DNA of 64,000 nt from Eledone cirrhosa (Eukaryota): NCBI GenBank assembly GCA_964016885.1, contig OZ024754.1, positions 24,366,001 to 24,430,000 of the forward strand. Direction: 5' to 3'. How positions within the stretch are numbered: position 1 is the first letter of the stretch; each line of letters opens with the position of its first letter. A model generated the notes under the pieces. It had not been told where the DNA came from. It saw only the letters and a list, made by a program, of their open reading frames with translations, and ran no database searches. Made by a program: the position numbers and the translations under genes. Shown here piece by piece: positions 5,957-61,206 of this stretch.

Positions 5957-6030
<74 letters not shown>

Positions 6031-6031
<1 letters not shown>

Positions 6032-6561
6032 GATTTTGAGTTTATGTTGGTTGTATACCAACACCTCAGTATGCAGGCTGGAGCACTCGACGATGTGCGC
6101 AGGTTGGTTTGGTTACTCCGGAGTAGTGTAAAATAAAGTTAAATAAAAGTCAAATGATTAAAATTTAGCTTCGTTTATTACTGCTATATATATTTCAGTG
6201 ACAGCCATCTTTGGCTGTGACCTCTTCAGGCAGTTTGAATTAGTATGGTATAGACAAGTACATATGTTATTTAGGTGTATGATATTGTCAATACTCTGAT
6301 ATGCCCAGTTCCTTGTTGGGTTGTTAATTCACTGGGGAACGGGAGTCCCGTTCCCCAGTGAATTAACAACCCAACAAGGAACTGGGCATATCAGAGTATT
6401 GACAATATCATACACCTAAATAACATATGTACTTGTCTATACCATACTAATTCAAACTGCCTGAAGAGGTCACAGCCAAAGATGGCTGTCACTGAAATAT
6501 ATATAGCAGTAATAAACGAAGGTAAATTTTAATCATTTGACTTTTATTTAACTTTATTTTA
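6031..6561. mobile_element. Fold-back PLE-type element (family P2): 216-bp-arm palindrome centred at 6345 plus ~98-bp tail
   Basis: 6129-6344 and 6346-6561 are reverse complements (one mismatch seen). A non-palindromic copy lies at 53105-53421. Flanked by (TA)n. Confidence 0.85.
6456..6510 (+). ncRNA. Minimal type-I hammerhead ribozyme (mirror copy on - at 6180-6234)
   Basis: ACTGC-CTGAAGA-GGT(C)ACAGCCA[AAGA]TGGCTGT(C)ACT-GAAA-TATATATA-GCAGT. Confidence 0.85.
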
Positions 6562-9817: not shown

Positions 9818-10497
<680 letters not shown>

Positions 10498-45960: not shown

Positions 45961-46347
45961 TCTTCCTCTATTTCTCTTTCTCACATCCTCTCTTTTACTC
46001 TCTTTCTTTCTCATTCTTTGAGTAAATCGGTTGTGTTCAAACCTACAGTGGTGGTAGATTCTGCCAGATTTAAACAACTGTACGACACCAGCAGGAGTTA
46101 TGGGTCCATACATACATAGGTGTTTCTGGAATACTCAGCCATTTTTGTGGTGATCAAACAACTGGAATACTTATCGTTGGAATCGATGTAGGATCTTTTT
46201 TTTGTTACTCATGAAAGATGTATGAAGGGAGAAGGATTATACAGGTATATACACATTTATGTATATATATATATACATATTAACGTGTATATATACATAT
46301 TCATGTGTTTATATACATATTCATGTGTATATATACATATTCGTGTG

Positions 46348-46408
<61 letters not shown>

Positions 46409-46413
<5 letters not shown>

Positions 46414-46569
46414 AACAAGTAAGACCCCGACGGCTGAGCTCAAGCCGTCGAAACGGCTTGAGCTCAGCCGTCGGGGTCTTACTTGTTCCTATTACCCACT
46501 CTATTACCCTAAGTATTGAGTACTTTGGTGCGTTATGGTCCACCTGGTTCCTTACCACATTTCCTTCGT

Positions 46570-53104: not shown

Positions 53105-53421
53105 AGATTTTGAGTTTATTTTGGTTGTATACCAACACCTCAGTATGCAGGCTGGAGCACTCGACGAAGTGCGCAGGTTGGTTTGGTTACTCCGGAGTAG
53201 TGTAAAATAAAGTTAAATAAAAGTCAAATGATTAAAATTTAGATTCGTTTATTACTGCTATATATATTTCAGTGACAGCCATCTTTGGCTGTGACCTCTT
53301 CAGGCAGTTTGAATTAGTATGGTATAGACAAGTACATATGTTATTTAGGTGTATGATATTGTCAATACTCTGATATGCCCAGTTCCTTGTTGGGTTGTTA
53401 ATTCACTGGGGAACTGGAGTC
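53105..53421 (-). mobile_element. PLE-type family P2, non-palindromic copy; hammerhead at 53254-53308
   Basis: Near-identical to 6031-6347. Confidence 0.85.
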
Positions 53422-53496: not shown

Positions 53497-53552
53497 ACTG
53501 CCTGATGAGGTCATAGCCATTCAATGGCTATCATCGAAATATATATAGCAGT
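53497..53552 (+). ncRNA. Minimal type-I hammerhead ribozyme
   Basis: ACTGC-CTGATGA-GGT(C)ATAGCCA[TTCAA]TGGCTAT(C)ATC-GAAA-TATATATA-GCAGT. Confidence 0.85.
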
Positions 53553-53682
53553 AAATAAAGGATTATGATATATATAAATCAAGAGATTTATTTTGAATGA
53601 AACAGTTCTAGTCGTGTAGAAGCCATTTCTATATTAAACATGGTGTTTACACTCTACTAATGTATTGAAAACCCGGGGCTCA

Positions 53683-56544: not shown

Positions 56545-56680
56545 ATATTAATAAATGGAAACTATATTTATAAAACCATATTTATTATATATATTTCAAG
56601 GGCAACCAAGGCAAATTAGGGTGCGCTGTTATCAGACAAAATACAGATTTGTTTTATAAATAAATATTGACATAGCCGGA
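56545..56680 (-). mobile_element. PLE remnant related to 58756-58880, with degenerate hammerhead at 56581-56640
   Basis: Minus strand: TTTGT-CTGATAA-CAG(C)GCA...TGC(C)CTT-GAAA-TATATATA-ATAAA. Confidence 0.6.
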
Positions 56681-58667: not shown

Positions 58668-58755
58668 CTGGTGGCTTAGTTCGGATCTAGCTGTTGAAAC
58701 GGCCGACGGAGCTCAGCCGTCGGAGTCCTGACTCTTTTCCTATATATATATATAT

Positions 58756-60820
58756 ATCAATAATATTAATAAATGGAAAATATCCTTATAAAACCATATT
58801 TATTTTATTATACATATTTCAAGGGTACCATTATTTTGGTACGCTTTCGTCAGATAAAATATAAAGATAATGACATATCGACATATGAACTTAATGTTAA
58901 TGTTATGAGTTCAATGCAGATAGTGGATAAATATTCAAAACTCAGGATAAATATGCTAATGAGGATAACGTTAAAACTGAAAAGGACCATTAAGTTTAGA
59001 CGCTAGATATATTTAAATAATTATACCAATTGTTTTTTTTTAAAAAAGAAGTATTCTATTAAAATTGAAGAAAAAAAAGCTACTTTCGGAATAAATATGC
59101 ATATATACATCCGAACATATTTACATGGGTATAAAAAGAATGAAATTATTATATTTATTTAATTTTATAATTTGGAAGTTTTTATAATAATGTATTAAAG
59201 TGAGAACTCTTAATTTAATATGTGAAAGATACCTTATATTTATATATACTATTGAATATATTTTACGGGTCTGTTTTAATATTATGATGAGTGCAGTTAT
59301 AAGTATAGTATATTGTATTATAAGAGATTAATTGTATACCGTTATTAAAACATTTATTTAGTACATAAATAGTTATGCGTGAATATAGATTTTGTTTACA
59401 TATAAAAACAGTTAGGATATGCCAAGCGAAGATATATATGCATTTTCTATATATAGCTTAAGAATGTGAAAATAATTATATTTTTATAGAGATGTATAAT
59501 ATTATGTATAATCTATTATTGCGTATGGTTAGAAATATAAATTTAAAAATTTAAATATTTATGTAAAGTTTGAATGTCTCGTAAAGGTGAAATGTAAACA
59601 AGTCTATATCAAAGGAAAAGATAATTCTAATTTTTATTAATTCAAAGAGTTTAAGTTATTTGAAGATATATAGTTACAATATAAGTAATATATATAGTTA
59701 CAATATAAGTAACAAATTTATATATGATTTCAGAGAACCATATAGTAAATATATTCAAGATATTAATAAAAAGATAACACTTTCTATGTATAGATTTTGA
59801 TAACAATAAGTATATCTATGTATAAATTGGATAATATTAAGTATTTGTATGTATAAATTTAAAAACTTATAAAAACCTTTAGGAAAACCTTTGAAAACCT
59901 TCAAAAACACCTTTAAAAACAACCGAAGACATATATATTGTAATTGTGCAACTTATAAAGGCCATGTGCAGTATTTTCTATAAATTATAAATATTTTTAA
60001 ATGTTCGAGAAAATCGATGCAAGCAAGAATTAAATATCTCCTTTTTTTTTGTTTATAGTATTGCTAGGATTGGTAATTATATGAAAAATTTCTTCAATAC
60101 AGAGATGACAAATTCTTGAGAGAGCCATATTCTGGTAAACAGGCGCTTTCGATATCCTTCACCATGAGATGGAATAGTCAGTATTATTGTCTTTTAAAGA
60201 CCAAATTAATTGAGATAATGAAATTGAAAATTTTTTGTCCGATCGTTTGAAGGTATGTTTATGATTATACCAACGGTCCTTAAATTTTGTAGAAGTAGCT
60301 CCTATATAATTATATAATCTATCTCTAGTTTTTATGGTTCATTTGTATACTAAATTTATATCTAGGCAATTATTCTGTAAAGGGCAAGATATTTTATTTC
60401 GGCAATTACATTTTCTAAAATTGTTGTTTAGAGAAACGGTATTATTATTATTATAATTATATGTAATGTTATTAGTAATATTGTTATTGCTATTAGGGTT
60501 TATTTGGGTTGAGTTTAATTTTAAATTCAATTTTAAAAAACAATTGGTATAATTATTTAAATATATCTAGCGTCTAAATTTAACAGTCCTTTTCAGTTTT
60601 AACGTTATCCTCATTAGCTTATTTATCCTGAGTTTTGAATATTTATCCACTATCTGCATTGAACTCATAACATTAAATTCATATACCGATATGTCATTAT
60701 CTATAAACCAAATGTTATATTTTATCTGACGAAAGCGTACCAAAATAATGGTACCCTTGAAATATGTATAATAAAATTAAGTTTTATAAGGATATTTTCC
60801 ATTTATTAATTTTATTGATA
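58756..60820 (-). mobile_element. Decayed Penelope-like element bounded by ~285-bp inverted repeats
   Basis: 58756-59040 pairs with 60533-60820. The minus strand encodes CNCRNKISCPLQNNCLDINLVYK and, after a disruption, IYIGATSTKFKDRWYNH (GIY-YIG). Confidence 0.75.
60721..60775 (+). ncRNA. Minimal type-I hammerhead ribozyme (mirror copy on - at 58804-58858)
   Basis: TTTAT-CTGACGA-AAG(C)GTACC[AAAATAAT]GGTAC(C)CTT-GAAA-TATGTATA-ATAAA. Confidence 0.8.
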
Positions 60821-61206
60821 TTATACCCCAGAAGAATACTGTTGAGTGCTTCTAATCTGTTATAAATTAACTTTGTTGAAGAATCAACAAAACAAATAAC
60901 TCATTGTTTATATATATATATCATCATCATCATCATCATTCGTCGACTACTGTCGAGATGATGGATCTCACTCTCATGCCCCAGAATTCCCTGTCCTCCA
61001 TCACCGCCCCAGATAATAGAGAAAGAGAAAGAGAGAGAGGGGGGAGAGCCATATATCGTCCGAGAAACAGTTTTGTACATAAAAAGAACATAATATTTAG
61101 AGAAAAATATGTACTTCAAGGTTGAACTGAAGTACGTACTTTTTCCTAAATATTATGTGCTTTATATATGTACAAAATATTATGTGTTTCTCAAAACATA
61201 ATATAT

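What the first reader, a model, noticed from the sequence alone, without database searches (positions are those of the whole stretch)
6456..6510. Hammerhead subtype shared by sequence-unrelated PLE families: C-C mismatch at stem II position 4 and a short, mostly palindromic stem III
Seen: the motifs at 6456 (GGT-C..C-ACT), 53497 (GGT-C..C-ATC), 60721 (AAG-C..C-CTT), 56581 minus (CAG-C..C-CTT) and 10157 (CGG-C..C-CCA) all place an opposed C-C after three stem II positions. Stems I and II covary (ACTGC/GCAGT versus TTTAT/ATAAA; ACAGCCA/TGGCTGT versus ATAGCCA/TGGCTAT). Stem III reads TATATA, TATGTA or CGATCG. Established: PLEs carry minimal type-I hammerheads, and palindromic stem III loops allow dimeric folding. 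Inference: the C-C pair is a selected tertiary-contact or protein-recognition feature.
Basis: partly seen in the sequence, partly recalled or inferred. Interest (0 to 1): 0.7.

Follow-up and report, generated by a model that had tools for sequence, protein, structure and literature searches.

The report
Retrotransposon hammerheads with fixed C·C mismatch
Eight hammerhead-shaped RNA motifs in this animal DNA, one family tied to a broken Penelope-type jumping gene and the others likely so, keep two unpaired cytosines at one fixed step of a stem whose neighbouring pairs change together, unlike relatives sampled from public metagenomes; the mismatch is likely a contact point on a predicted self-cutting RNA of a known kind.

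Summary
The C·C is real: all five cited motifs have it at stem II step 4, as do three more copies. They form three lineages, not five. Two cited motifs are flawed: 56581 has a broken core and first pair; 10157 lacks a stem I arm and has a C·A first pair. One family lies downstream of a decayed Hydra-clade Penelope-like (PLE) endonuclease.

The short palindromic stem III is ordinary for Hydra hammerheads; the C·C is not. It occurs in 0 of 58 Hydra stems fetched here and, by eye, in 0 of 26 and 0 of 56 published rows. Between the two main lineages only 3 of 14 neighbouring bases match, yet both C's stay. In reads of one family they change as rarely as core bases. This is moderate evidence of constraint within one host lineage, not a pan-PLE subtype.

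Most likely it is a contact site on a dimer- or protein-assisted ribozyme; cleavage is untested. No genome was available, and Lünse et al. 2017 could not be read. The scan reported this feature at least four times before on other pieces of this genome. New variant of a known kind.

The parts
6456..6510 (+). Family 1 hammerhead: stem I 6456-6460/6506-6510, core 6461-6467, stem II 6468-6493 with C·C at 6471/6490, G12-A15.1 6494-6497, 8-nt palindromic stem III 6497-6504, predicted cut after A6505
6180..6234 (-). Mirror copy of family 1 in a fold-back palindrome
6129..6561 (.). 433-nt fold-back (head-to-head inverted) insertion centred at 6345, 3 mismatched bases; the longer left arm runs to a (TA)n tract near 6030
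53254..53308 (-). Third copy of family 1, in a 98% identical 366-nt stub flanked by (TA)n
53497..53552 (+). Family 1b hammerhead, 84% like family 1 over the motif only; C·C at 53512/53532; steps 1, 2 and 6 differ but still pair
60721..60775 (+). Family 2 hammerhead in the inverted, 5'-attached repeat; C·C at 60736/60755
58804..58858 (-). Family 2 hammerhead in sense orientation about 1.1 kb downstream of the endonuclease remnant; C·C at 58843/58824
58749..60825 (.). 5'-truncated PLE copy: inverted repeats 58749-59038 and 60535-60825 (89% identical) around the endonuclease remnant and 3' UTR; the left end abuts (TA)n
59970..60560 (-). Decayed Hydra-clade GIY-YIG endonuclease end (two in-frame stops and a frameshift; approximate ends); 34-39% identical to seven Hydra-type proteins over 60033-60416
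56581..56640 (-). Family 2b, a decayed relative of family 2: C3·A8 core mismatch, C·U first pair, C·C at 56625/56601 kept, compensatory change at step 6
10157..10290 (+). Family 3 partial hammerhead: core 10157-10163, 115-nt stem II (C·A first pair, C·C at 10167/10275), perfect 8-nt palindrome 10282-10289, no 5' arm of stem I; mirrored on the minus strand in the palindrome 9953-10363

Best explanation
These are truncated end-pieces of Hydra-type Penelope-like retrotransposons (shown for one family, likely for the rest) whose predicted type I hammerhead keeps a C·C mismatch at stem II step 4, likely as a selected contact site that ties cutting to an assisted fold. Shown: the fold, the compensatory changes around a fixed C·C, the palindromic stem III, and one link to a Hydra endonuclease. 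Computed: a monomeric stem III is unfavourable, so two motifs would have to swap their palindromes. Inferred: in an active element the copies at both ends of one transcript pair through stem III. The C·C loop, three pairs from the junction, would then be the spot where the element's RT-endonuclease protein, or the A-rich strand after stem I, docks to complete the active fold. The window's copies are stubs and are likely inert.
For: C·C is present in all three lineages, while families 1 and 2 share only 3 of 14 neighbouring bases and only one neighbour pair (step 7) is fixed across all five motifs. Outside sets keep step 4 paired: 57 of 58 Hydra stems (50 Watson-Crick, 7 G·U, 1 C·A, 0 C·C), so reversion to a pair would be the expected drift. 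In about 7,200 pooled reads of family 1, C10.4 changes in 1.07% and C11.4 stays under the 1% listing limit. These are the two lowest of 13 G/C positions in stem II (others 1.3-4.7%) and match core C3 at 1.1%, while the wobble at step 1 becomes G-C in 43% and a loop base changes in 20%. A monomeric stem III costs +2.7 to +3.4 kcal/mol, with P(15.1-16.1) of 0.001-0.15. Six of the 80 Hydra loci carry the motif at both ends in the same orientation. A PLE hammerhead that cuts only when its protein is added has been reported (PMC11167929, parts 1-2 of 4 read). An AAA run follows stem I in 35 of 49 Hydra motifs, versus 9 and 5 in control bins.
Against: There are only three lineages, probably from one ancestor, and the feature was picked after the fact; step 7 is equally fixed. 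No conserved G that could pair with either C was seen by eye in the flanks. Read counts come from RAD libraries with uneven sampling of loci, both C's share the same local context, and only family 1 was measured. Families 1, 1b and 3 have no ORF in the window. The A-U-rich palindromes give weak dimers (-3.2 and -2.2 kcal/mol). The control set has no close relative of this endonuclease (30-45% identity, long unplaced branch). In the PAc element, hammerhead cutting was not needed for insertion in vitro. No cleavage data exist for these motifs.
Confidence: 0.45

Rival explanations
1. Inherited accident: one ancestral PLE in this host lineage had the C·C, its descendants radiated, and the mismatch is tolerated rather than selected.
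For: All C·C motifs share other traits that differ from the Hydra norm (8-nt stem III, purine at step 2, A-U at step 7), which points to common descent. The feature is absent outside this genome in every set examined. n is three lineages.
Against: 12 of 14 neighbouring bases turned over across the five motifs while both C's stayed; taking that rate gives about 0.02 for two free bases (from; post hoc). A single C-to-G change would restore pairing, the state in 57 of 58 relatives.
Confidence: 0.25
2. Thermodynamic brake: the mismatch only weakens the three-pair proximal stem II, so the RNA is not cut too early or as a monomer; base identity matters little beyond being unpaired.
For: The proximal pairs are only partly formed in the ensemble (about 0.65-0.70 in family 1, 0.39 in 1b). 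In family 1b the 3' C helps an alternative fold that sequesters the core. Uncut RNA was the main insertion substrate for PAc.
Against: Every window case is C·C rather than a mix of mismatches. The proximal stem is well formed in family 2 (0.85-0.94). The core-sequestering fold is not shared by families 1 and 2.
Confidence: 0.22
3. The C's are kept for a DNA-level or non-ribozyme reason, such as a promoter, splicing or endonuclease signal in the pseudo-LTR, and the mismatch is a by-product.
For: PLE pseudo-LTRs overlap promoters and introns (PMC6765202 passages; PMC4209133).
Against: The bases on both sides of each C differ between lineages, and the spacing between the C's varies from 18 to 107 nt; what is constant is their position in the RNA fold.
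Confidence: 0.08

Closest known systems
Hammerheads of Hydra-clade Penelope-like elements (Craig et al. 2021, PMC8557442; passages and supplementary Files S1 and S2 read)
   Same: Type I layout; stem II starts straight after A9; near-palindromic 8-10-nt stem III; cut mostly after UA; (TA)n targets; inverted 5'-truncated copies; GIY-YIG endonuclease with the CNCR..CPL linker (family 2).
   Different: C·C at step 4 (0 of 26 published rows by eye, 0 of 58 fetched here); purine at step 2 (1 of 60 in the Hydra set); U-A as second stem III pair (1 of 60); long stem II; about 1.1 kb between endonuclease and motif, versus 75-534 nt in the fetched loci.
Minimal hammerheads of metazoan PLE pseudo-LTRs (Cervera and De la Peña 2014, PMC4209133; main text parts 1-2 of 4 and supplement parts 1-2 of 3 read)
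   Same: Long stem II, short stem I, palindromic stem III, proposed dimeric action, dispersed truncated copies.
   Different: They carry an extra base between A9 and 10.1 and mostly a 0-2-nt loop 3; 0 of 56 listed motifs show a C·C in stem II (by eye). The window's non-C·C families at 2930 and 55039 fit this type.
Short-stem-III PLE hammerheads that cleave as dimers (Lünse et al., RNA Biol 14:1499; not held, seen only as cited in PMC6765202 and PMC6466107)
   Same: PLE association, palindromic stem III, dimer cleavage.
   Different: Unknown: I could not check whether its consensus already shows this mismatch.
PAc (Poseidon, Anolis) protein-assisted hammerhead (Frangieh et al. 2024, PMC11167929; parts 1-2 of 4 read)
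   Same: A PLE hammerhead inactive alone and active with the element's protein; the precedent for the proposed mechanism.
   Different: Different PLE clade; no stem II mismatch is mentioned in the parts read; cutting was dispensable for insertion in vitro.

Membership tests
Type I hammerhead ribozyme | Core CUGANGA ... GAAA ... UH | tested here: met
   Met in families 1, 1b, 2 and 3; family 2b has a C3·A8 mismatch.
Type I hammerhead ribozyme | Three stems, ends meeting in stem I, with covariation | tested here: met
   Families 1, 1b, 2 and 2b. Family 3 lacks the 5' arm of stem I.
Type I hammerhead ribozyme | Paired 10.1-11.1, usually G-C | tested here: inconclusive
   G·U or G-C in family 1, G-C in 1b, A-U in 2; unpaired in 2b (C·U) and 3 (C·A). 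The Hydra set has U·U in 33 of 60.
Type I hammerhead ribozyme | Match to an Rfam hammerhead model | tested here: not met
   No hammerhead family at E<=10 in 6400-6560, and none among the 150 of 167 window matches shown. The window's non-C·C PLE motifs are also absent from those 150, so this reflects model coverage.
Type I hammerhead ribozyme | Self-cleavage | not testable with these tools
   No RNA holder was listed; needs an assay.
Hydra-clade PLE | C-terminal GIY-YIG with CNCR..CPL linker, related to Hydra ORFs | tested here: met
   Family 2 only. The remnant hits P0004 at E 2e-20; P0004 carries the RT and linker motifs of the published Hydra rows; tblastn hits to the fetched loci reach E 4e-29. 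No Pfam hit for the remnant itself.
Hydra-clade PLE | RT domain in the same ORF | tested here: inconclusive
   The copy is 5'-truncated; seven Hydra proteins hit only the endonuclease remnant in the window.
Hydra-clade PLE | Hammerhead in the pseudo-LTR, inverted 5' copy, (TA)n target | tested here: met
   Family 2 has inverted repeats around the remnant; families 1 and 3 are fold-backs with one arm ending in (TA)n.
Hydra-clade PLE | ORF link for families 1, 1b and 3 | tested here: inconclusive
   At most about 110 nt lie upstream of these motifs in the window, and no genome is held.
Minimal hammerhead of Cervera and De la Peña | Extra nucleotide between A9 and 10.1 | tested here: not met
   All C·C motifs pair in the no-bulge register.
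Non-LTR retrozyme | Tandem head-to-tail repeats, each with a hammerhead | tested here: not met
   Copies are dispersed or inverted, never tandem, in the self-BLAST; definition from 10.64898/2026.07.22.740005 part 1 of 5.

The most novel reading that the evidence does not exclude
A host-lineage-specific branch of Hydra PLEs has evolved a base-specific recognition site (the C·C loop, or one of its C's) in hammerhead stem II. The element's own RT-endonuclease reads it to switch the ribozyme on, making it a natural protein-gated hammerhead with a defined docking site shared by families whose other sequence has diverged beyond alignment.
Probability: 0.25. Interest if true: 0.65.

Novelty: new variant of a known kind. 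Interest (0 to 1): 0.38.

Why it matters
What PLE hammerheads do is still open: they cut poorly alone, one needs its protein, and Naiad elements thrive without the canonical motif. A fixed mismatch among covarying pairs gives a single-base handle for asking how cutting is switched on. It also warns that descriptors demanding a fully paired stem II will miss these motifs. If the mismatch is merely inherited, it is only a marker for one PLE radiation.

Tried and rejected
Whole-genome scan: not possible, no genome is held, so copy numbers and family counts quoted in earlier notes were not checked.

Rfam gave no hammerhead match; its microRNA and psbJ hits are microsatellite or palindrome artefacts.

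A covariance model from four motifs recovered only the seven known complete copies in the window (next hit E 0.098) and 15 weak matches among the 80 Hydra loci; none of the four alignments shown has a C·C.

Pattern scans outside animals found nothing real. Of 70 viral and 4 prokaryotic loci with the C·C pattern, 9 had partial stem II pairing; the one inspected reads as phage coding sequence (my reading, not tested). No Hydra relative was found in viral contigs.

Read ends piling up at 6449 and 6528 looked like an 80-nt solo element. Both sites are AATT, so I reject this as a likely restriction artefact of the RAD libraries (enzyme identity recalled, not shown). Summed contig depth was not used as a copy number. 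No RNA holder was listed. Runs X9 and X6 laid 1 and 0 records and X5 laid 112; none was informative on the C's.

One search used a mis-registered structure string; its numbers are void and one search replaces it. The endonuclease tree was an unfinished quick tree and left the window's remnant unplaced. Fisher tests (3 of 8 versus 0 of 58, p 0.001; 2 of 7, p 0.01) treat related lineages as independent and are descriptive only.

Family 1 shares 15 bases from C3 onward with the non-C·C family at 2930, but the flanks do not align, so descent from it is unproven.

Literature: searches and a motif search of Craig's supplement turned up no description of this mismatch. Lünse et al., most subscription papers and bioRxiv supplements could not be seen and may bear on novelty.

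Full report
Observation. The motif at 6456-6510 reads as a type I hammerhead: 5-bp stem I, core at 6461-6467, a stem II of three pairs, C6471 opposite C6490, then seven pairs, and an 8-base palindromic stem III with a predicted cut after A6505. The same C·C at step 4 is present at 53502+, 60726+, 56635- and 10157+, and in three uncited copies (6229-, 53303-, 58853-). A descriptor that ignores step 4 found 10 hammerheads in the window, 7 with C·C; ten shuffled windows gave 3 hits in all, none with C·C. Four aligned motifs show two-sided changes in 11 of 18 pairs, and the C·C column never pairs (two lineages, structure read from the same sequences).

56635- is decayed: C3·A8 in the core and C·U at the first pair. 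10157 has a C·A first pair, a 115-nt stem II (z -5.5 for the fold) and no 5' arm of stem I, since a 411-nt palindrome is centred on U4. The five motifs are three lineages: 6461 and 53502 are 84% alike over the motif only; 58853 and 56635 are 80% alike including downstream flank; 10157 stands alone. Flanks do not align between the first two lineages (42 comparisons, only the family 2/2b downstream one is clearly above chance). Step 7 is also invariant in all five.

What carries them. No intact PLE ORF lies in the window. Three GIY-YIG remnants do. Two precede ordinary bulged minimal hammerheads without C·C (2930+, 55039-). The third, near 59970-60560 on the minus strand, lies between inverted repeats (58749-59038 and 60535-60825) that hold the family 2 motif, the layout drawn for PLEs in PMC8557442 (passages). 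It matches 700-residue proteins at E 2e-20 whose RT and linker motifs are those of the published Hydra clade. Families 1, 1b and 3 are short stubs or fold-backs beside (TA)n with no ORF; their Hydra-type origin is inferred from the unbulged stem II, the stem III and the target.

Outside controls. Selection was by protein, not by motif. 58 of 80 loci gave a hammerhead, with 60 distinct stems II. Of the 58 stems that reach step 4, 50 are Watson-Crick there, 7 G·U, 1 C·A and none C·C (the descriptor required steps 2 and 3 to pair, and some loci are near-identical). A plain pattern search agreed: 1 of the 80 loci matched, at a place the descriptor did not call a hammerhead. Stem III was 8-10 bases in 58 of 60 and within one base of a full palindrome in 53 of 60, so that half of the finding is the clade norm. 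By eye, 0 of 26 Hydra rows in File S2 of PMC8557442 and 0 of 56 rows in Fig. S3 of PMC4209133 have a C·C in stem II. The control lacks close kin: the remnant is 30-45% identical to these loci and unplaced in a quick tree.

Is the C·C selected? For: families 1 and 2 share 3 of 14 neighbouring bases, and only one neighbouring pair is fixed across all five motifs, yet both C's persist; two free bases would survive at about 0.02 on that rate. In two raw-read runs (4,259 and 3,511 reads laid), C10.4 changes in 1.07% and C11.4 is below the 1% listing limit. These are the two lowest of 13 G/C positions in stem II and equal to core C3, whereas step 1 shifts from G·U to G-C in 43% and loop bases change in 8-20%. 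Against: few lineages, shared ancestry, a feature chosen after the fact, uneven RAD sampling, identical local context of the two C's in that family, and no read data for the other families. I rate constraint of some kind at about 0.7-0.75.

Mechanism. Closing stem III in a monomer costs 2.7-3.4 kcal/mol and is rarely populated, in line with the dimer model (PMC4209133; PMC6765202 passages). The window's mirror copies face opposite ways and could not meet in one transcript, but 6 of the 80 Hydra loci carry the motif at both ends in the same orientation, which is the arrangement needed. The A-U-rich palindromes pair weakly (-2 to -3 kcal/mol), so help is probably required, and a PLE hammerhead that cuts only with its protein is on record. 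I therefore favour the C·C loop as a docking site for the element's protein or for the A-rich strand after stem I (0.45), ahead of an inherited accident (0.25), a pure folding brake (0.22) and a DNA-level signal (0.08). Every step beyond the fold, covariation and ORF link is inference.

Novelty. The ribozyme class, its PLE setting and the palindromic stem III are known. I found no description of this mismatch in seven searches, but the most relevant paper (Lünse et al.) was not available. Earlier agents of this scan reported the same feature on other pieces of this genome, with claims of over 100,000 copies, about 20 lineages and a single conserved C. These are unchecked leads that I could not test; my data do not tell which C matters. 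The host was not identified here. Verdict: new variant of a known kind, interest 0.38.

Noticed in passing
window 46429+, 46472-, 46811+, 46888-, 56993+, 57082-, partial near 58690-58741: Another (TA)n-inserted repeat family forming fold-back palindromes, with a stable hairpin followed by a GAAAC word. It might be the rearranged Naiad hammerhead family of earlier notes, but I did not test that. The Rfam psbJ-2 hit at 46344-46486 is this palindrome.
   Followed up: no
window 53585-53640 +: 3' half of another hammerhead-like motif with a 4-bp stem III and a longer loop; very deep in reads of two organisms, whose loose ends supply a core upstream. Short stem II, no C·C apparent.
   Followed up: partly
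window 2930+, 1268-, 54672- and 55039-: Ordinary bulged minimal hammerheads; 2930+ and 55039- lie just downstream of GIY-YIG remnants (Pfam PF01541). The 2930 family shares 15 bases from C3 onward with family 1.
   Followed up: partly
window 61868- and 62507+: A Hydra-style hammerhead with U·U first pair and paired step 4 (61868-), and a doubtful one (62507+).
   Followed up: partly
loci L121-L200; window 6511-6516: AATAAA lies within 20 nt after the cut site in 14 of 49 Hydra hammerheads, versus 2 and 0 in the next two bins; also seen after families 1, 1b and 2. Could be a poly(A) signal or an A-rich docking strand.
   Followed up: partly
loci L121-L200: Hydra hammerheads open stem II with U·U in 33 of 60 cases and have G at step 3 in 55 of 60, a tight clade consensus.
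   Followed up: partly
window 6345 and 10158: Fold-back centres: one is a small hairpin about 110 nt upstream of the ribozyme, the other falls on U4 of the core, where C3 and G5 are complementary.
   Followed up: no
window 12249-39191: Several broken non-LTR retrotransposon copies of two types, judged by eye from ORF translations (one with a restriction-like endonuclease end, one with an AP endonuclease).
   Followed up: no
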